Position numbers and translations under genes: made by a program
The notes under the pieces: generated by a model
What the model was told of the DNA's origin: nothing
What the model saw: the letters and a program-made list of their open reading frames with translations, nothing else
Databases searched by the model: none
Part shown: one piece after another, positions 51,246-60,719 of the stretch
Layout of the letters: each line of letters begins with the position of its first letter
How positions within the stretch are numbered: position 1 is the stretch's first letter
Assembly: GCF_009914755.1 (NCBI RefSeq)
Contig: NC_060925.1
DNA: 64,000 bases
Direction: 5' to 3' (one strand)
Origin: the human T2T-CHM13v2.0 reference genome, Homo sapiens

Positions 51246-53359
51246 ATTTTATTTTGAAAAAGAAAACTAATATTTTAAGATAATGACGAGAAGGACTCAG
51301 TAGGAAATAGACTGGAGTCTATTCCAGTTCCAATTTCACACTGAAGAGCAAATGTTATTTGTCTTTATATCTAGTATAAGAAACCAACATCATTTTTGTA
51401 ATAAAACAAACATGGGATTCACTGAGGCTTGCAGAAGAGAGAGGAGGACTGTAGAGGTACAGATTTCTGCTGCACTATGCACAGCTGGTTTTAAGGGATG
51501 CCTACCAGATGGTAACGTTTGTCAAAGATGAAACATTGTATCCACAAGCGTGGAGGCTGTGCCCTGTGGCAGAGCAATTCTTTTCGGAAAGAATGTTGGG
51601 GAAATAATTCTTCTGATGGGCTAAATGTATACATTTTTAGTGGTTGTGGATTTATTTCCACCTTGGGCCAAGATAATTTTAAGTTTGTTATACTGTCTCA
51701 TGAACCATAGGTTCTAAATAGTGAGAAAGAGATGAGGTGGAATAGGGGAGGAAGGGAGAATGTGCATTTTGGGGAGCTGAGTTTCCCTGATGCTGAAAGA
51801 TTGCTTCCAATATAATCATTGGCTTGTGGTTTCATTTTCCTCTTTAAGGGCAGGGTACTTTATTCAATTCTGTATATCTCTGAGGTAGGAAATTTCTTAT
51901 GCTACTTTGGCTTAACTCATGAGTGAGACGGAGGCTCGGAAGATCATTTAGCACCTAACAGAAGCAACCTTTCATTTTTTGGCAGGTGGGTAGGGAGCAA
52001 GGAGGGAAGAGAACATAATTCATTCCTGCGGATCACAGTCTCCAGTTACTCCTGATCTGAGTCATTCTTTTTCCCAGTGAGAATCAGGTACATAGAAGGT
52101 ACCACCAGAAAGGTTATTTTAATTTACCCTTTTGCTGATATTCCTCTCACTCTGGGTTAAAAGAGCTGAGCATGGCAATGCTTGATTTGTCAAGTCTTTT
52201 TCTAAAGTGTTTTTCTCTGTGCTCTGTCTTCCACCTCTGACTCAGCCATATACAAATGTACATTCCGGACGCTTCTAACCCTTCTAACCAATAGACATGA
52301 TTAACTGTTATCAGCATAATCTAAGGCTGAAGATTTTAAACTGATCCACTCCAATACCAACCAGTTGATAATCACCAAAGCAACGTATATGTTTGTTTTT
52401 CCCTGTTAATTGGCTTTCAGTGAAATGTCATGATGTGTCAACATTTGCAAATTCCTGCCCTGCTCATACAAGGTAAAAATTACTTGATCCATCCTAACTA
52501 AGCCACAGGCCTTCTCAGACATGTTTTTGTTGTTCTAAGGAGGAAGAATTTGTTACACTTATGTAAGTAAATTATTTCCAGCAAACAAAAATGCAGTGTC
52601 TACAGTGTGGCATCAGAATCTCAATTCGTCTGGAAACTCTGTGAAGAGCACTTTTCAAATTATTTATCAGCCTTTCCCAGGTCACATCTCTATTTTATTT
52701 TTGCTCCTTTCAAAGGTATTCACATCTTTCCTATGCTCCATTCCCATTTTCAAAAGGAGGTCGAAATAACAAGCTTTCTGTTATTCAATTAATAAGTCTT
52801 TCAATCATGGTGTCAGGCAAAAGTTCAGAGCCAACTCGGTAAAGGCTGACTATTCAAGACCATAGGCCAGTAAGTTCTCATGTGAAAGAGAACATGCCTT
52901 CATGTCAGGCGTTAAACACATGATCGAGAATGTGAACACCTGCTAAAGAACATGGAAGGGTCTTTCCTAAAGTGGATTTTGCAGTAAGCTCTCATTCCTC
53001 TACATAATAGCTCTAAACCATGCACCTGACTTTCATTGCCCTAGGGAAAATCAGTACTGGTATAGACCTAATGGGAGAAGTGTAATATATTTCACTGCAG
53101 GAACCACCTTCCACCATCACCCTCCCCATCCTCCAAACACACTCCTGGAACAATCCCTGTGGAACTCCATTGCTGCATCAGTCTTTGACCAGTCTTCTAA
53201 ACTACGCAGCTCAGAGTAGCTCAAATTCACTGCCTCTGAACTTGAAAAATTAGCACCATATCTTATATGCTTTGTTCAAAATGATCAACACCACACAGAT
53301 TAGCATTTTATTATGCCAGCATTAAATAAGAGCTAAAAAGAATGAGCTTTATTGACATT

Positions 53360-53565: not shown

Positions 53566-54009
53566 ACTATCCTGTTAAGCAAATGCTTCTTCAATTATTC
53601 AATACATATTTAACTTTCATGTGGGTTTTAACTTGAGTAGGTTATAAATGCACAGAATACTGGTTTATAACGTGGATCTCTAACCTCAGCACCTAATATA
53701 ATGGTTGTTATCAATATGTAATTTAATTTTCTTTACTAAATACATTTCATAGTGTTCAGAATAGCACTAAGGTCTTGGGAGCACGTAAATATTTCTTACT
53801 CCTTAAGTAATTATTATAGTAGCTTGCATTTTGTGCCTACTATGTGCCTGGCCCTATGCTAGGTAGTTTACACATATTATCTGTAATTCTTAAGCAACTT
53901 CACGGGACTGAATTGTAGCATGTGTGATAGAAAAATCTCTGATGATTTTCGATAAGTAGATTTGAATAGCACTATGGAGAGTGATTAATTTGTAGATGGA
54001 GTGAGGATA

Positions 54010-54300
54010 TTTGTTTATTCATTCATTCAACAAGTATTCCCTAATTTCCTTCTACATTCTAGCTGCTTCTGGGTCCTAGGCTTATAACAATAAATAAGAC
54101 TTGTCCTTATAGAAGGGGAGGCAGGTAATTAACTAATAAACAAAACCATAAGATACTTTCAGAGAGTGGTAAATGCTATAAAGAAAATAAAACAGGCTGA
54201 ATGTAGAGAGAATTTAGCGTGCCATGTGAGAACTATTAGATTGGCTGGTCACAGGCAATCTGTGGAACGGACTCTCGTGCTGAGACCTGACTTTGCACAA
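54010..54300 (-). mobile_element. L2 3' end
   Basis: ttcattcattcaacaagtatt...gtggtaaatgctataaagaaaataaaacagg. Confidence 0.7.
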
Positions 54301-54327
54301 TGTAAATGCTTGTTACTAAAGAATACT

Positions 54328-54630
54328 TATTATTATTATTATTATTTTTTGAGGTGGAGTCTCGCTCTTGTTGCCCAGGCTGGAGTGCAATGTCGTGATC
54401 TCAACCTACCACAACCTCCGCCTCCTGGGTTCAAGCAGTTCTCCTACCTCAGCCCCGAGTAGCTGGGATAACAGGCATGTGCCACCACACCCGGCTAATT
54501 TTGTATTTTTAGTAGAGATGGGGTTTCTCCATGTTGGCCAGGTTGGTCTCAAACTCCCGAACTCAGGTGATCTGCCCACCTCAGACTCCCAAAGTACTGA
54601 GATTACAGGCATGAGCCACCACACCTGGCC
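54328..54630 (-). mobile_element. AluSp/Sq-like
   Basis: cgctcttgttgcccaggctggagtgcaat, gggtttctccatgttgg; TSD taaaga(a/g)tacttatt. Confidence 0.95.
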
Positions 54631-55104
54631 TAAAGAGTACTTATTACAAAAAACTAGGAGCCTGGAAGGATGTGCATCATACTCTGGGGATTTTGCCATG
54701 AGTTAAGAGAAATGAGATGGAAGCAGTAGAAGGAATGATTCAAGAGAGGGTCTAAATGAATAAATGAAAGAATGATGTTAAACAATACAAGCTTATACTT
54801 CAGCACACTAGGGCATCAGACGCCTCTGGTCCCTCGTGCCAGACACATCTGGCATGGAGTGTCACTGGGGACCTCAAAGTTATATCGGGGGTTTCCCCTG
54901 AGTATCCTGCTCCTTCTTTGAAGAGGGCTCCCTTTGGTCCATTTTTCTCACCTCTTATCCCTGAGAGCAGCATTTTGCATACAGTCAATGTTCACCAAAT
55001 GTTTGCTATGTAGCTACTGCTCAAGCACTTTAACTGCTAAAAAACAATGCTTTTAGAGAGCAAAGAATTATTGGTCCTTTCAAGTGATCGAGTTTAATTA
55101 ATAA

Positions 55105-55260
55105 TCTGTCTAGCAGCTATGTGACCTTAAGTTAATCACTTAACCTCTGGAGACCTCGGTTTTCTCATCTGTGAAATGCAGATGATAACAACCGCCTCCC
55201 TGTGTTGCCCTTGGGACTGGAAGAGAGGAGGTGTGAGAAAGCCCTTAGTCATGTCTAACC
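55105..55260 (+). mobile_element. MIR
   Basis: gctatgtgaccttaagttaatcacttaacctctggagacctcggttttctcatctgtgaaatg. Confidence 0.8.
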
Positions 55261-55841
55261 TGGGATGCCCTTGCAGGGGCTTCCATATTCTATCTCATGG
55301 GATGAGAGGGCAGAGAGAACTCACTGCACTATCACCGTCTTCCCCATTGCCTCCATCACAACGCAGGTGTGGGAGGTGGGGAAAGGGATGGGAGCAAGAA
55401 CCAAACACATTAGCAATGTCATGGTTGTTTATTGTTTTCACCCATGTGGTAATAAATCAATGTGAGGTTTGTCATTTTAATTAGTCTTCTTTCAGTCTGG
55501 GAAGTCAAGGCTGTTCAATGCTGATAGGGAGCTGAAAAATTATCTGAGAACGAGTGTCCGGAATGAGTCTCAGCGTCCCGGCTTCAGAGTGCTGCAGGTC
55601 ACTGGAGATGGGGAGTGAAGAGCCCTCCACTTCAGAAGGAAAATTAGCGTTTGGTGTAAGGCTGACAGCAGTGGGTGGAGAAGGAGCTGAATTCATCTTT
55701 TCCTTGCTTACTGCTAGTCCAGCCCCATGGTGAGCTGCAGGGAAGAGAGTGTGGAGGGAAGGGAGAGTAAGGGGATAAATTTCTGTAGATGTTTCTATAC
55801 AGCCTAACGTGAGAATGCATTATTTTTATATATATATATAT

Positions 55842-56717
55842 AAATTAAATATTTCCACTCAACTCCATCATTACAGCAGGAAACATCAGAGCTGCCCGAC
55901 GTGGCTCAGATTTCCTTCGATGGCAGTAAATCTGGCTGAAGTTTTATGGAAAGGGTGAACTATCACTTCATAGAGAAGTAGTCAAGCAGACTGAAATTGG
56001 AGGACAACTTGGACTAGTTGAACTTTAAGATCTTTTCCAAATTTAGAAATTCCATTAAATGGAAGGAAATAGTTTTTATTATTAATAACAAAATATAATA
56101 ATAATAACAGCAATTCCTTAATATTATATTATGCTTTGTAGTTTATATTTTGCCATCATATGCTTGAAACAATTGTGTGAGGCAGGTAGAATAGGTATCT
56201 TATTTCCATTGCATTCAAGGAATCAAGGCACAGAGAGTTAAGTGATTTCCCCATGGACACAAAGTAAGTGGAAGAATTAAGATGAGCACCCAAGCGGTGC
56301 CTGTATATCATCCTGTTGCTGCCAAATATGATCATGAGGAGAAAGTTGATGACCATTCTAGACACTGCTGAAGGAAGGAATAGCCGATTTCAGGAAGATC
56401 AGCAAAGACTGTGAAAAGGACCAGAGTCATTTTTCCTTTTATTATCTAGTAGGAATATAACCATGATCCCCAACAAGCCAGTGAACATCCTTGTACAACC
56501 ACACACTTTACAAGGGTTTTGCTTTGAATCTTCCCTGAGACATCACAGGAAATGGGCTTCCTTGTGATACAACTCAGTTCAAGGCAAGTAAATCCATTTG
56601 GCAACGTGTTGTTTGACAAATTTTAAAATAGAGGTTTGATTTGCTTTTTATACTTACCCCTGTTTTCACCATTGAGGACAGTAACTCCTCAAACTTTTGG
56701 GCATATAATATGTGTGT
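55842..56717 (+). repeat. Left arm of large inverted repeat (876 bp)
   Basis: Reverse complement of 57011-57909; manual alignment gives 24 substitutions, three 1-2 bp indels and one 22 bp duplication. Confidence 0.98.
56100..56305 (-). mobile_element. MIR within the left arm (mirror copy at ~57445-57650 on +)
   Basis: aaggcacagagagttaagtgatttccccatggacaca, the MIR core. Confidence 0.75.
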
Positions 56718-56975
56718 TTATATATATATATGTATAATTTGGATATATATATGTATAATTTGGATATATATGTATATATGTATATATATACACACGTATG
56801 TATACATACACATGTATACATACACATATATATACACACGTATGTATACATACACATATACATACACATATATACATACACATATATACATGTATACATA
56901 CACATATATACATATATACATACACATATATACATATATACATACACATACATATATACACATATATATCCAAAT

Positions 56976-57010
<35 letters not shown>
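56718..57010. repeat. TA/CA-rich microsatellite centre of the palindrome, itself partly symmetric
   Basis: (TA)n/(TACA)n; tgtataatttggatatatat on the left pairs with atatatatccaaattataca on the right. Confidence 0.95.
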
Positions 57011-57017
<7 letters not shown>

Positions 57018-57909
57018 TATTATTTGCCCAAAAGTTTGAGGAGTTACTGTCCTCAATGGTGAAAACAGGGGTAACTATAAAAAGCAAATCAAACCTCTAT
57101 TTTAAAATTTGTCAAACAACACGTTGCCAAATGGATTTACTTGCCTTGAACTGAGTTGTATCACAAGGAATCCCATTTCCTGTGATGTCTCAGGGAAGAT
57201 TCAAAGCAAAGCCCTTGTAAAGTGTGTGGTTGTACAAGGATGTTCCCTGGCTTGTTGGGGATCATGGTTATATTCCTACTAGATAATAAAAGGAAAAATG
57301 ACCCTGAGCCCTTTTAACACAGTCTTTGCTGATCTTCCTGTAATCAGCTATTCCTTCCTTCAGCAGTGTCTAGAATGGTCATCAACTTTCTCCTCATGAT
57401 CAAATTTGGCAGCAACAGGATGATATACAGGCACTGCCAGGATGATATACAGGCATCGCTTGAGTGCTCATCTTAATTCTTCCACATTCTGTGTGTCCAT
57501 AGGGAAATCACTTAACTCTCTGTGCCTTGATTCCTTGAATGCAATGGAAATAAGATACCTATTCTACCTGCCTCACAATTGTTTCAAGCATATGATGGCA
57601 TAATATAAACTACAAAGCATAATATAATATTAAGGAATTGCTCTTATTGTTATTATACTTTGTTATTAATAATAAAAACTATTTCCTTCCATTTAATGGA
57701 ATTTCTAAATTTGGAAAAGATCTTAAAGTTCAACTAGTCCAAGTTGTTCTCCAATTTCAGTGTGCTTGACTACTTCTCTATGAAGTGATAGTTCACGCTT
57801 TCCATAAAACTTCAGCCAGATTTACTGTCATCGAAGGAAATCTGAGCCACGTCGGGCAGCTCTGATGTTTCCTGCTGTAATGATGGAGTTGAGTGGAAAT
57901 ATTTAATTT
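57011..57909 (-). repeat. Right arm of large inverted repeat (899 bp)
   Basis: Reverse complement of 55842-56717. Confidence 0.98.
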
Positions 57910-58380
57910 CTATCCTGAAGTATTAGTTTAGCCTTTTAGAACCCCAGTCTATTTTCCAAGGTGGTAACTTTTAACATGTTTTAGCAGAGCTCTTGCTCCT
58001 AAATCTTCACTTTCCCCAGCTGAAGACCCTGAGCATGTTCAAATATTCTTCAAGTTGTATTGTTTTGGGTTTTCTCATCATTCTAATTGGTCAGCTCTAA
58101 ATATTTCTGTTTTCTATTTCTTTCTTAAAATGTGCCTCTTTCAGCTGAATATCCTGGCATGTTATGACCAGTGTGTCTAAAAACACAACTTGATATTCAC
58201 CAACCAGATCTGCTCATCTTTCCCCAAGTCTTCATCTTGTTTTTTAGCACAAGTCAAATGCCTTAATTACTTCTCGTGTGTGTGTGTGTGTGTATTTTGT
58301 CACTTGTCACCTGTCTTCATTCTAAAATTTGCTCCTTCAGTAAAGTTTTCCCTGAATATTTTAATCCAGGGCCAATGATC
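57698..58380 (-). mobile_element. L3/CR1 LINE 3' region crossing the outer boundary of the right arm
   Basis: ggaatttctaaatttggaaaagatcttaaagttcaactagtccaa (antisense CR1 3' end) continues past 57909 into cttcactttccccagctgaagaccc...ttcttaaaatgtgcc...tgaccagtg. Confidence 0.6.
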
Positions 58381-58639
58381 ACCCTCATCCTTACAATCTT
58401 CAGACACTCAGGACAGTAAGTGTTCTGGGGAAACAGAGCTGGAAAGAAGGGCAGGAAGGCGGGTATGCTTGATTTTTGTCAAGAAAACAGGGGAATTGAT
58501 TCCAAAACCATGAAAGACAGACTTCTAGAAAAGAGGCTAAATTTCTTCTATGTTGATCTAAAGAGCAAAATTGAGACCAGTCAGGGCAACTTGGTGGGGG
58601 AAGCTCCTGAGATACGGTGGAGAGGAGCATAGGATTGGG

Positions 58640-58790
58640 GACAGGATAGCTCTGGGTTCAAGTTTGAGTCTACAACTTCCTGATTCAATGGTCTTAAGTG
58701 ATTTTCTGTGTCTGTTCCCAGCCTAAGCCTCTGCCTCTACAAAATGAGGTGAATTTTACCAACCTCATATGGTCCTTTTTAGGACTAATA
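58640..58790 (+). mobile_element. MIR
   Basis: ctgggttcaagtttgagtctacaacttcc...ctctacaaaatgagg. Confidence 0.6.
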
Positions 58791-58899
58791 GGCATTGATT
58801 CAATTGGCCGGGCCCAGGACTCTGTGTCCTGGGGTCTTTTCACAGCACATGCTAACTTGTCCTGCCTCTACTCGGTTTACAAGAAAAGTCTGAGTGAAA

Positions 58900-59368
58900 G
58901 ATCAAGTTCATGTTCAGAAATATTCACTCCCTTCCCATAACTGCATTGGAAGAACAGAATTTCCTGTTCCATTCATGGTGAGCTTGGCTATGTGAATTGT
59001 TTCAGTCAGTGGGATATTAGCGTCCATGATGCAGCAGCCTTGAAAAGTATCTTCATGCTTCAACTTACACTCTTGAACTTCTGGCATTGCTATGGATAAA
59101 AATATGCCCAGAACGGACAGTTCATCCCAGGAGGAGGATAAAAGTCATGGGGAGTGGAGCTGTACCACCAGAGCTGAGGCCACCCCAAATCAGCAGCCCC
59201 CCAGTTGACCCCAGCCTGCTGCAGATGCATGAATGAGCCCAGCTGAGACCAACAGTACTGCAGAGCCAACCAGCACACTTGCAAGCTGCGTAAATGCATT
59301 TTTGTATGCTCCCGAGATTTTGTGGCTGTTTTATATGCAATGTTATTGTGGCCATAGTTACTTGAAAT
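58900..59368 (+). mobile_element. MLT1I/J-like LTR
   Basis: gagcttggctatgtgaattgtttcag...gagattttgtggctgttttatatgcaatgttattgtggccatag. Confidence 0.7.
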
Positions 59369-60719
59369 AACCAGTAAAATAAGATATGAATGGCTGACAA
59401 GGCTCAATATTTCCCTCCCCTGAAAGACATGGGAAGCCAATATTTTTATTTGTTTAATAAATATTTAGGTGAACTCCATGTGCCAGGTCCCCAATTGTAG
59501 TTAGTTTTCCGTTGTACAAGGGATTCTGCTTTAAAGAACTGTACTTAAAGCAGTATAGAATTATACTAGAGCCCCAATTCCCTTGACTTAAAGTTATTAC
59601 ACACAAAGCAAAACACAAACTGCTACATGTGCTGAGCTTATACAATGTCCCTCTTTTTAAATCTCTGTGCATCTCTCTGCCCGGTGGACTCTGGACATCA
59701 CGTTGTTTCCCTAGTTTCTAGAGCTGGTCTACCTGAGCATCCTGGAAAATCCCTGTAATGTTAGGTAATGAAGTAGAATTTTACTGGGTGGAAAGCTATT
59801 TCCTTTCCCTTTCAGTAAAGTGTCTCGAACTCTACTCCCTAGTCTTTTCCACCTTCCTAGATAATTCCAAAGGAATTTGGTGTTACGTGATCCTCTGAAG
59901 GGTGGAGGCAAAGAAGGAAACTAATAAGGACTTCTTTTTATTGCATAGCTGTGCTTCCCTTAGAATGGGGATCACAGTGGGACTGCACAAGGCCATCGCT
60001 CCTGCTCTCTGAAGGCTGGGGCTGCAACTGCACAGAAGAGGGTGCTCTTGTGCAAAGCTGCAGCCAGCTTCCTGGGAGGAGGTGAAGTTTACTCGTTCCT
60101 TGCTGAGCGGATGATTCATTGCTCATGATATTTGGTAGATGTAGTCTGCATTAGTGCACACATATTCTGCAACAACAGATAAAAACCCCAAACGGCAAAA
60201 ATGTCAGGAAACTCATTCGTATGGAGGGTGCACATCCATCATCCTCTGCTGTTCTGATACGACAGAGCCAACTTTTATCAGCATCCTTCCCTTTTACCCT
60301 ACTGCCAGGGCCCTTTAAATGAAAATTATCAAGGAATAGGGACAAAAATAGTGCCATCCTTTTTAGAGTTTTCAAATTGCTTTCACCATTTGGAAAATAA
60401 CTATATATCCATTAACTCGTTTGTCACACAAATATTTATTGAAGGACAGTTATTCTGCTTTTTCAATGCTTTTGGAGAAAGAATTGAAGCTCCTTCCTTA
60501 CCAATCAGACCCAGATGACCTGATTTCTGCTTCCCTCTCCAATCTAATCTCATGCTAACTGCCTTCTCTCTGGCTCTTTTCAGCCTCAGGCTTTTGCTCT
60601 CATATTTCATTTTACTAGAATTTTTTTTCTGGTTCATATTAGGGCTTATTTGCTTTGTTTTTCTCATTCTCCAGAGCTCAGCATGAATGTCATATTCTCA
60701 GAGTGACTTTCCTTAAGTC

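What the first reader, a model, noticed from the sequence alone, without database searches (positions are those of the whole stretch)
55842..57909. ~2.07 kb near-perfect DNA palindrome of non-Alu sequence centred on a TA/CA microsatellite
Seen: 55842-56717 is the reverse complement of 57011-57909 at ~97% identity (24 substitutions by manual alignment). The symmetry extends into the centre, so the unpaired spacer is only ~150 bp and is itself alternating purine-pyrimidine sequence. The arms contain unique DNA plus ancient MIR and L3 relics, so this is a local inverted duplication and not two independent insertions. Established: long inverted repeats with short AT-rich spacers can extrude cruciforms or hairpins, stall forks and promote breaks and spacer inversions. 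Inference: this is a candidate fragile or structurally polymorphic locus whose high arm identity means either a young origin or ongoing arm homogenisation.
Basis: partly seen in the sequence, partly recalled or inferred. Interest (0 to 1): 0.85.

Follow-up and report, generated by a model that had tools for sequence, protein, structure and literature searches.

The report
Old inverted duplication forming DNA palindrome
A 2-kb stretch of human chromosome 1 is a genuine mirror-image (inverted) duplication built around a TA-rich simple repeat; it looks millions of years old and its centre is now too lopsided to make it an obvious breakage hotspot.

Summary
Window 55842-57909 is a quasi-palindrome. 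The unique arm parts (55842-56704 and 57909-57024) align over 861 columns with 23 substitutions (97.3%) and 4 indel events. Symmetry runs into the TA/TG/CA microsatellite and leaves a 152-bp spacer, 56790-56941, that alternates purine and pyrimidine throughout.

The arms are single-copy in T2T-CHM13 apart from each other. This is therefore a local inverted duplication, not a transposon pair, and its differences rule out a fold-back assembly artefact.

Best reading: fold-back or template-switch copying at a self-complementary TA-rich microsatellite, with TA runs at both junctions. At recalled clock rates K=0.027 gives about 11-27 Myr. Mismatch spacing shows no conversion tracts. Tandem 44-bp duplications have since enlarged the spacer.

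It is not a PATRR: the arms are 63% AT. Computed cruciform cost is about +414 kcal/mol, against 8-20 published for PATRR11. Published spacer and asymmetry effects predict low cruciform activity, so "fragile" is only weakly supported.

Ape orthologs and human haplotypes could not be examined. Which arm is the copy is unresolved. Verdict: a real, ordinary member of the long-inverted-repeat class, of moderate to low interest.

The parts
55827..55842 (.). (TA)8 run abutting the outer edge of the left arm (outer junction)
   Evidence: TRF period 2, 8 copies, 100%. The junction printout shows arm homology ending here.
55842..56704 (+). Left arm, non-microsatellite part (863 bp, GC 37.1%)
   Evidence: Aligns to the reverse complement of 57024-57909: 861 columns, 23 mismatches. 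Single-copy in the genome apart from its partner.
56705..56789 (+). Left inner arm: TG/TA-type microsatellite containing a 21-bp unit x3.4 (56722-56790); pairs with 56942-57023
   Evidence: The alignment continues to 56789/56942. TRF 21-bp period. TG versus CA counts per 20-bp bin.
56779..56792 (.). 14-bp perfect palindrome where the top strand switches from TG-type to CA-type repeat. It is the candidate original turn-around point, 78 bp left of the arms' geometric centre (about 56864).
   Evidence: Palindrome scan and bin counts.
56790..56941 (.). Spacer, 152 bp, CA/TA-type, 100% alternating purine/pyrimidine, GC 24%
   Evidence: It lies inside the 44-bp-period array 56782-56969 (4.2 copies), whose first two units are identical over 32 nt.
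56942..57023 (-). Right inner arm: CA/TA-type microsatellite including (TA)12 at 56982-57005
57024..57909 (-). Right arm, non-microsatellite part (886 bp, GC 37.2%)
57435..57456 (.). 22-bp tandem duplication present only in the right arm
   Evidence: Gap in the alignment blocks; sequence read.
57910..57913 (.). Outer junction of the right arm. A further 3 of 4 bases match 55838-55841, which is possible TAT microhomology; unrelated flank follows.

Best explanation
This is a real germline inverted duplication of a roughly 0.95-kb unit: about 865 bp of ordinary intergenic DNA plus about 85 bp of adjoining compound TA/TG microsatellite.

Inferred mechanism. During replication, or during repair of a break inside the microsatellite, a 3' end lying in self-complementary TA-rich repeat folded back on its own strand and copied the neighbouring unit in reverse. 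It then returned to the original template at a TA run, with up to 3 bp of TAT microhomology. That gave copy - microsatellite - source. The event is old: about 11-27 Myr by a simple clock, which would put it before the human-chimpanzee split.

Since then the arms have drifted apart neutrally (23 substitutions, 4 indels). The centre has become lopsided through tandem duplications of 44-bp and 21-bp units, leaving a 152-bp spacer.

Today it is a non-coding, unannotated quasi-palindrome in the HLX-DUSP10 gene desert. It can fold into a long hairpin when more than about 0.5 kb is single-stranded, but it is a poor cruciform substrate in duplex DNA. The most likely present-day variation is length change of the central repeat rather than breakage.

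Shown: the anatomy, the single-copy status, the divergence, the fold energies and the tandem units. Inferred: the mechanism, the age, the order of events and the low activity.
For: Collinear inverted arms with 97.3% substitution identity. The arms occur nowhere else in CHM13 or in the window. Both junctions of the duplicated unit lie in TA repeat: (TA)8 at 55827-55842 and the central array. A 14-bp perfect palindrome marks the TG-to-CA polarity switch. The shared microsatellite and an AT-rich motif inside both inner arms show that the repeat was part of the copied unit.

The spacer sits in a 44-bp tandem array whose first two units are identical over 32 nt, more alike than the arms are, so at least 44 bp of spacer is probably younger than the duplication. 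Mismatch spacing is random and there is no inner/outer gradient. K=0.0272 gives 11.3-27.2 Myr.

No gene, exon or functional-element row overlaps it; the only masked row is the centre. ORFs are mechanical low-complexity reads. All Rfam hits are below gathering.

Fold-back with a single-copy spacer and inverted microhomology is the documented route to human inverted duplications (PMC3907307, passages). Replication template-switch models are set out in PMC10766186 (passages).
Against: No outgroup or second human haplotype could be examined, so the age, the ancestral state and which arm is the copy all rest on inference.

The microhomology and 'short inverted repeat' signatures lie in low-complexity TA sequence, where they are expected by chance.

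The substitution spectrum is odd: 10 transitions to 13 transversions, binomial P=0.013-0.018 against a recalled 2:1 expectation. If some differences were made by error-prone synthesis at birth, the clock age is too high.

Five of 7 CpGs survive in both arms, a little more than I would expect for about 15 Myr, but the numbers are tiny.

Classic fold-back events end in terminal deletions or dicentrics. An interstitial two-copy product needs a second switch or a secondary deletion.

The mutation rates used are recalled, not taken from a call.
Confidence: 0.65

Rival explanations
1. The palindrome is much older than 2.7% divergence suggests and is kept similar by arm-to-arm gene conversion, as in sex-chromosome palindromes.
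For: Inverted arms 0.9 kb long and about 150-320 bp apart are good substrates for intrachromatid recombination. Five of 7 CpGs are retained in both arms. Conversion cannot be excluded without orthologs.
Against: Mismatches are spread as random: longest identical run 100 bp (P=0.87), variance P=0.67, 12 outer against 11 inner. Four indels, including a 22-bp one, persist. Identity of 97.3% is far from the very high identity I recall for actively converting palindromes.
Confidence: 0.12
2. Same product by a different route: either a double-strand break whose hairpin-capped or folded-back end was processed and rejoined by end joining, or an ODIRA-type inverted triplication that later lost one direct copy.
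For: PMC10766186 argues that interstitial inverted duplications derive from inverted triplications by secondary rearrangement (passages). PMC3907307 and PMC4057610 report 0-8 bp microhomology and end joining at palindrome junctions (passages). The outer junction has at most 3 bp of homology.
Against: Only two copies exist now, and nothing in the sequence marks a lost third copy. The products are indistinguishable after millions of years.
Confidence: 0.15
3. Assembly or clone fold-back artefact: only one arm exists in the real chromosome.
For: Palindromes are a known source of chimeric fold-back reads (general knowledge). I could not inspect reads or another assembly.
Against: The arms differ by 23 substitutions and 4 indels, including a 22-bp tandem duplication. 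The inner microsatellites differ in unit number, and the spacer is asymmetric. An artefactual copy would be essentially identical.
Confidence: 0.01
4. A transposable element with long terminal inverted repeats, or two insertions of one element in opposite orientation.
For: The structure is superficially like an element with long inverted ends and an AT-rich middle.
Against: No other copy of any part of the arm exists in 3.1 Gb, apart from one 50-bp 86% match. No further copies turn up in the window by nhmmer. The outer ends are not flanked by a matching target duplication. There is no transposase-like ORF.
Confidence: 0.01
5. A functional hairpin-RNA or microRNA-type locus: transcription through it would give a roughly 0.9-kb double-stranded RNA or small hairpins from the centre.
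For: The centre gives Rfam hits to repeat-derived miRNA families (mir-297 at 61.7 and 54.1 bits; mir-466, mir-3149 and others). The fold is very stable. A lncRNA ends 3.8 kb upstream on the same strand.
Against: All hits are below gathering (90 for mir-297) and lie in low-complexity repeat. No transcript or functional element is annotated over 55842-57909. The arm differences include unpaired indels, so there is no sign of selection for pairing.
Confidence: 0.03

Closest known systems
Long inverted repeats (LIRs) / quasi-palindromes of the human genome (Lirex and related catalogues; PMC5414712, passages)
   Same: The stem is far longer than 30 bp, the mismatch rate of 2.7% is under 15%, GC is above 20%, and the spacer is short relative to the stem. 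The locus is intergenic. That paper says over 100 'recombinogenic' LIRs exist in the human genome.
   Different: The total span of 2068 bp slightly exceeds Lirex's default 2000-bp window. I could not see whether this locus is in any list, because supplements are closed. Its arms are unusually long for a non-Alu, non-segmental-duplication LIR.
PATRRs (palindromic AT-rich repeats, e.g. PATRR11/22; review PMC7999016 and PMC3197554, passages)
   Same: A non-repeat-family palindrome with an AT-rich centre. Centre size and symmetry are expected to govern its activity.
   Different: PATRRs are described as several hundred bp, near-perfect and more than 90% AT. Here the arms are 63% AT and the centre 81% AT, with a 152-bp spacer and 2.7% divergence. 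The computed duplex-to-cruciform cost is +414 kcal/mol against 8-20 tabulated for PATRR11 alleles; the two used different software, so the comparison is rough. No translocation link is known to me.
Fold-back inverted duplications (PMC3907307, passages) and replication template-switch / ODIRA products (PMC10766186, passages)
   Same: An inverted copy lies next to its source, separated by a single-copy spacer, with short inverted homology at the turn.
   Different: Those events are kb to Mb in size, usually come with terminal deletions or triplications, and are recent and pathogenic. This one is 0.95 kb, interstitial, two-copy, fixed in the reference and old.
Closely spaced inverted Alu pairs (yeast and mammalian assays; PMC10164571 and PMC3300023, passages)
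   Same: The same physical rules apply: arm length, identity and spacer decide hairpin or cruciform formation.
   Different: The arms here are three times longer and are not Alu. The 152-bp spacer falls where those assays show large losses of activity: 12 to 100 bp gives 300-fold less recombination, 12 to 200 bp about 20-fold lower GCR, and a 52-bp spacer abolished fork stalling.
Large X/Y ampliconic palindromes
   Same: Two inverted arms around a spacer, with arm-to-arm recombination possible.
   Different: As I recall them, those have arms of 8 kb to Mb, near-identity maintained by conversion, and testis genes. Here the arms are 0.9 kb and 97.3% identical, carry no genes and show no conversion signal.

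Membership tests
Long inverted repeat (Lirex definition) | Repeat copies >30 bp | tested here: met
   About 948-bp arms, of which 861 columns are non-microsatellite.
Long inverted repeat (Lirex definition) | Mismatch rate <15% and GC >20% | tested here: met
   2.7% mismatch; arm GC 37%.
Long inverted repeat (Lirex definition) | 'Recombinogenic' subclass by the mismatch/spacer criterion (delta) | not tested
   The formula was not in the passages I saw.
PATRR | >90% A+T (review wording) | tested here: not met
   Arms 62.9% and 62.8% AT; centre 80.6% AT.
PATRR | Near-perfect palindrome of several hundred bp with a symmetric centre | tested here: not met
   152-bp spacer; polarity switch 78 bp off the geometric centre; 23 substitutions and 4 indels.
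PATRR | Site of recurrent or non-recurrent translocation breakpoints | not testable with these tools
   No breakpoint data are available here. The literature searches did not surface this locus.
Fold-back inverted duplication | Inverted copy adjacent to its source with a single-copy spacer | tested here: met
Fold-back inverted duplication | Inverted (micro)homology at the spacer/duplication boundary | tested here: inconclusive
   A 14-bp perfect palindrome and TA runs are present, but such matches are expected by chance in a TA-rich repeat.
Fold-back inverted duplication | Associated terminal deletion / dicentric history | tested here: not met
   The event is interstitial, with unrelated unique flanks on both sides.
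Gene-converting ampliconic palindrome | Arm identity kept very high by conversion (tracts of identity) | tested here: not met
   97.3% identity; mismatch spacing indistinguishable from random.
Spacer-limited non-B 'inverted repeat/cruciform' motif (gfa-type annotation, spacer <=100 nt) and spacer-less near-palindrome catalogue | Spacer <=100 nt, or none with <=4 mismatches | tested here: not met
   Spacer of 152 bp and 23 or more mismatches. As a whole it falls outside these catalogues' definitions.
mir-297/mir-466-type microRNA | Rfam gathering score | tested here: not met
   Best 61.7 bits against 90.
   No repeat library is available. The only extra genomic match is 50 bp at 86% on C23 for 56231-56279. 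nhmmer found none in the window. No masked row of at least 100 bp lies in the arms. The resemblance I see is recalled only.

The most novel reading that the evidence does not exclude
The locus is structurally active in people: polymorphic for spacer orientation, central repeat length or loss of an arm, and a discrete break-prone point inside the 10.6-Mb common fragile site FRA1H interval in which it lies. Occasional arm-to-arm exchange would then make it older than its divergence suggests. It would be a rare autosomal, non-Alu, kb-scale palindrome in which birth at a TA microsatellite and stabilisation by spacer growth can be followed across ape T2T genomes.
Probability: 0.1. Interest if true: 0.55.

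Novelty: new member of a known kind. Interest (0 to 1): 0.3.

Why it matters
It is a clean natural example of how a kilobase-scale palindrome can arise at a self-complementary TA-rich microsatellite and then be made safer by asymmetric growth of its centre. Its arms are unique sequence, so it is easy to assay by PCR or long reads. Comparison across complete ape genomes and human haplotypes would show which arm is the copy, date it, and test whether such structures invert, shrink or break. It also shows that spacer-limited non-B catalogues (spacer of 100 nt or less, or no spacer) miss structures of this size. No gene or annotated element is involved, so direct medical or functional weight is low.

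Tried and rejected
Naming the arm contents. Whole-genome DNA searches with the arm and with two sub-segments, at E up to 10, found only the two arms and one 50-bp match. nhmmer of five segments (three arm parts, two flanks) against the window found nothing beyond self and partner. MIR/L3 identity, and the hope of using a repeat that crosses an arm boundary to tell source from copy, therefore led nowhere.

Rfam at E<=1 on 54000-60000 gave 29 rows, all below gathering. Those in the centre are repeat-derived miRNA families and those at 54349-54629 are Alu/SRP-like. I rejected them as gene calls.

ORF listing gave 12 ORFs of at least 50 aa, none convincing. The long ones are translations of the microsatellite, and the arm ones are mirrored pairs.

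The annotation tables show no transcript, exon or functional element over the palindrome.

Literature. Four topical searches, one on palindrome stabilisation, one on the neighbouring lncRNA name (0 papers) and one on FRA1H. None showed this locus described. Two papers I wanted, on the NF1 palindrome's evolution and on the 2004 inverted-repeat survey, are not held.

I considered sampling up to 2 Mb of the genome for a base rate of such palindromes. I dropped it because the bound would be weaker than published counts.

I considered using spacer polarity (it continues the right arm's CA-type repeat) to argue that the right arm is the source. I rejected it as decisive, because an arm-to-arm inversion of the spacer would reverse the signal.

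Papers and what I saw of them. Passages only, by the find mode: PMC4057610, PMC7999016, PMC5414712, PMC10164571, PMC3907307, PMC10766186, PMC3300023, PMC3197554, PMC7680136, 10.64898/2026.03.05.709836, 10.1101/2025.11.03.686349, PMC4232749, PMC3472787. Search listing and start of abstract only: PMC7954356, PMC8604942, 10.1101/2021.12.20.472354.
Full report
OBSERVATION. The repeat finder reports four collinear inverted segments covering 55838-56736 against 56992-57913 at 94-97%. A gapped alignment of the left side with the reverse complement of the right extends from 55838/57913 inward to 56789/56942: 945 columns, 30 mismatches.

Indels in the unique arms are 2 bp in the left only (56174-56175) and 22 bp, 2 bp and 1 bp in the right only (57435-57456, 57316-57317, 57307). 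The 22-bp one is a tandem duplication (sequence). The unpaired spacer is 56790-56941, 152 bp. Every step in it alternates purine and pyrimidine, and 93.5% of steps do so over 56705-57026.

Chance is excluded. The 2076-nt top strand folds as DNA to -1056.9 kcal/mol with 850 long-range pairs, against -176.6 to -193.2 for 5 shuffles. The other inverted pairs of at least 120 nt in the 64-kb window are 75-87% identical and 1.4-9 kb apart.

ANATOMY. From left to right:
- Unrelated flank.
- (TA)8 at 55827-55842.
- Left arm, 55842-56704 (GC 37.1%).
- Left inner arm, 56705-56789, a TG/TA-type repeat holding 3.4 copies of a 21-bp unit.
- A 14-bp perfect palindrome at 56779-56792, where the top strand switches from TG-type to CA-type repeat.
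- The spacer.
- Right inner arm, 56942-57023, CA/TA-type with (TA)12.
- Right arm, 57024-57909 (GC 37.2%).
- Unrelated flank.

The centre 56705-57023 is 19.4% GC. Both inner arms share the first repeat tracts and an AT-rich non-repeat motif, so part of the microsatellite belonged to the copied unit.

The polarity switch lies 78 bp left of the arms' geometric centre, about 56864. The CA-type side is therefore about 157 bp longer than the TG-type side. That excess coincides with a 44-bp-period array (56782-969, 4.2 copies) whose first two units are identical over their first 32 nt and whose third and fourth are close.

At the outer edge, homology ends within 4 bases of the (TA)8 run. Three of 4 further bases match, which is possible TAT microhomology.

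WHAT IT IS NOT. It is not a transposon or a pair of insertions. The whole arm and two sub-segments find only the two arms in 3.1 Gb, plus one 50-bp 86% match on C23 for 56231-56279. The search tool states that it skips very common words, so it is weak on old repeats. nhmmer of five segments finds nothing more in the window.

It is not an assembly fold-back: 23 substitutions, 4 indels, unequal inner repeats and an asymmetric spacer separate the arms.

It is not a gene. No transcript, exon or functional element overlaps it. The lncRNA LOC105372932 ends at 52061, and the only masked rows nearby are an Alu-like 54321-54637 and the centre 56705-57026. The 12 ORFs of at least 50 aa are low-complexity or mirrored noise. 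All 29 Rfam rows are below gathering.

The locus lies in a gene desert, 590 kb from HLX and 226 kb from DUSP10.

No tool here can test that, and no masked row of at least 100 bp lies in the arms.

HOW IT AROSE (inference). A single-copy unit copied in reverse right next to itself, with a short single-copy spacer and with both junctions in self-complementary TA-rich repeat, is what fold-back priming or replication template switching produces. Human inverted duplications show a disomic spacer and 2-8 bp of inverted microhomology at the turn (PMC3907307, passages). Interstitial inverted copies are explained by strand switching at short interrupted inverted repeats, sometimes through a triplication intermediate (PMC10766186, passages).

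I propose three steps. A 3' end inside the TA-rich repeat folded back. It copied about 0.95 kb. It then returned at a TA run.

Two mirror-image versions fit equally well:
(A) The right arm is the source, and the left arm plus 85 bp of repeat was inserted into one ancestral compound microsatellite, whose left remnant is the (TA)8.
(B) The left arm is the source, and copying stopped when it reached the (TA)8.

Version A needs only one ancestral microsatellite, so I lean slightly towards it. The spacer's polarity, which continues the right arm's repeat, cannot be trusted, because an arm-to-arm inversion would flip it. Only an outgroup can decide.

The near-identity of the first two 44-bp units suggests that at least 44 bp of today's spacer was added after the duplication. 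The palindrome may have been born with a much shorter spacer, centred on the 14-bp palindrome, and later made asymmetric (inference).

AGE AND HOMOGENISATION. K (Jukes-Cantor) is 0.0272. With recalled rates of 0.5-1.2e-9 per site per year, and two arms diverging, this gives 11.3-27.2 Myr. The Poisson 95% range on 23 events (1.7-4.0%) widens that to roughly 7-40 Myr by my arithmetic. So the structure probably predates the human-chimpanzee split and is 'young' only relative to the ancient repeats it may contain.

There is no sign of gene conversion. The longest identical run is 100 bp (P=0.87 under random placement), the variance of the gaps gives P=0.67, and mismatches split 12 outer to 11 inner.

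One oddity remains. There are 10 transitions to 13 transversions (P=0.013-0.018 against a recalled two-thirds expectation). If the 3-mismatch cluster at 56262-56267 counts as one event, it is 10 of 21 (P=0.042-0.055). Error-prone copying at birth would explain it and would make the clock age too high. Chance and AT-rich context are alternatives. Two of the 23 mismatches are in CpG context, and 5 of 7 CpGs are kept in both arms.

DOES IT BEHAVE AS A FRAGILE PALINDROME? As single-stranded DNA it can zip up almost completely; in the predicted fold the centre forms a branched tip rather than a large open loop. In duplex DNA the balance is unfavourable. With the same DNA parameters, two hairpins cost +414 kcal/mol relative to the duplex for 55842-57909, and the 319-bp centre alone costs +192. 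The corresponding published figures for PATRR11 alleles are 8-20 kcal/mol (PMC3197554 Table 1); different software was used, so the comparison is rough.

Published experiments point the same way:
- In yeast, widening an Alu inverted-repeat spacer from 12 to 20 bp cuts recombination about 40-fold and to 100 bp 300-fold. Widening from 12 to 200 bp lowers gross rearrangements about 20-fold. Even one mismatch near the centre matters (PMC10164571, passages).
- In mammalian cells, spaced inverted repeats lose the recombinogenic effect. As quoted there, a 52-bp spacer abolished the fork stalling seen with 0-12 bp (PMC3300023, passages).
- Asymmetric PATRR11 alleles rarely give translocations (at most 6.8e-7, against about 1e-5 for the long symmetric allele).

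On the other side, in long single-stranded regions inverted repeats down to 75% identity and up to 30 kb apart still interact. The locus also lies inside the 10.6-Mb molecularly delimited common fragile site FRA1H. That site is tabulated in PMC4232749 with mir-664a and mir-320b-2 inside it, and both bracket the palindrome in CHM13. The interval is so broad that this is context, not evidence.

One in vivo T2T study found cruciform motifs depleted of single-strand signal and could not say whether they fail to form or fail to be detected (10.1101/2025.11.03.686349, passages).

My reading is low cruciform activity and some risk under replication stress or resection. Ordinary length polymorphism of the 319-bp central repeat is the most likely variation. 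That last point follows from general knowledge of tandem repeats and is not tested.

COMPARISON WITH KNOWN KINDS. It meets the working definition of a human long inverted repeat: stem over 30 bp, under 15% mismatch, GC over 20% (PMC5414712). That paper says over 100 recombinogenic ones exist.

It is not a PATRR. Those are described as more than 90% AT, near-perfect and several hundred bp (PMC7999016), whereas here the arms are 63% AT and the centre 81%.

It falls outside spacer-less catalogues. Those report 718 palindromes over 200 bp, the longest 618 bp, allow at most 4 mismatches and no spacer. It also falls outside spacer-limited non-B annotation, where the spacer is at most 100 nt.

It resembles fold-back inverted duplications in layout, but it is small, interstitial and ancient. 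It lacks the size, identity and conversion of sex-chromosome palindromes.

NOVELTY AND SCORE. This is a new member of a known kind. I found no description of this locus, but closed supplementary lists may include it. A specialist would find it a tidy example rather than a surprise. Its value is as a test case for palindrome birth at a TA microsatellite and stabilisation by spacer growth, which becomes testable once ape and human haplotype sequences are compared. Interest 0.3.

LIMITS. No primate orthologs, no second human assembly, no reads, no repeat library and no supplements were available. The age uses recalled rates. The mechanism and the order of events are inferences.

Noticed in passing
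window 56764-56909 (both strands): The central repeat gives sub-threshold Rfam matches to TG/CA-repeat-derived microRNA families (mir-297 at 61.7 and 54.1 bits against gathering 90; mir-466, mir-3149, mir-3688 and others). This is probably low-complexity resemblance only.
   Followed up: partly
window 54321-54637, minus strand: Alu-like element 1.2 kb left of the palindrome: two sub-threshold Metazoa_SRP hits and a masked-repeat row.
   Followed up: no
chr1:220,713,842-220,715,909 (CHM13) within 1q41: The palindrome lies inside the 10.6-Mb interval tabulated as the molecularly delimited common fragile site FRA1H. It is bracketed by MIR664A and MIR320B2, which that table lists inside the site. 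The interval is broad and there is no locus-level evidence.
   Followed up: partly
window 55923-56704 vs partner: Arm-to-arm differences are transversion-rich (10 transitions to 13 transversions), with a cluster of three within 6 bp at 56262-56267. Unexplained; possibly error-prone synthesis when the copy was made.
   Followed up: partly
window 57413-57456; 56722-56790; 56782-56969: Arm-specific tandem duplications: a 22-bp unit doubled only in the right arm, a 21-bp unit x3.4 only in the left inner arm (one copy on the right), and a 44-bp unit x4.2 in the spacer.
   Followed up: yes
window 4022-35790: Several other inverted pairs of 130-194 nt, 75-87% identical and 1.4-9 kb apart. They are probably inverted Alu pairs, but I did not check.
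   Followed up: no
L003 = G000:C23:24237952-24241001 (match at 24239452-24239501): The only extra genomic match to the arm: 50 bp at 86% to window 56231-56279. It is consistent with a shared old interspersed-repeat core. The locus was not read.
   Followed up: no
window 58276-58315: (GT)9 followed by a 7-bp unit x2.7, about 370 bp right of the palindrome.
   Followed up: no
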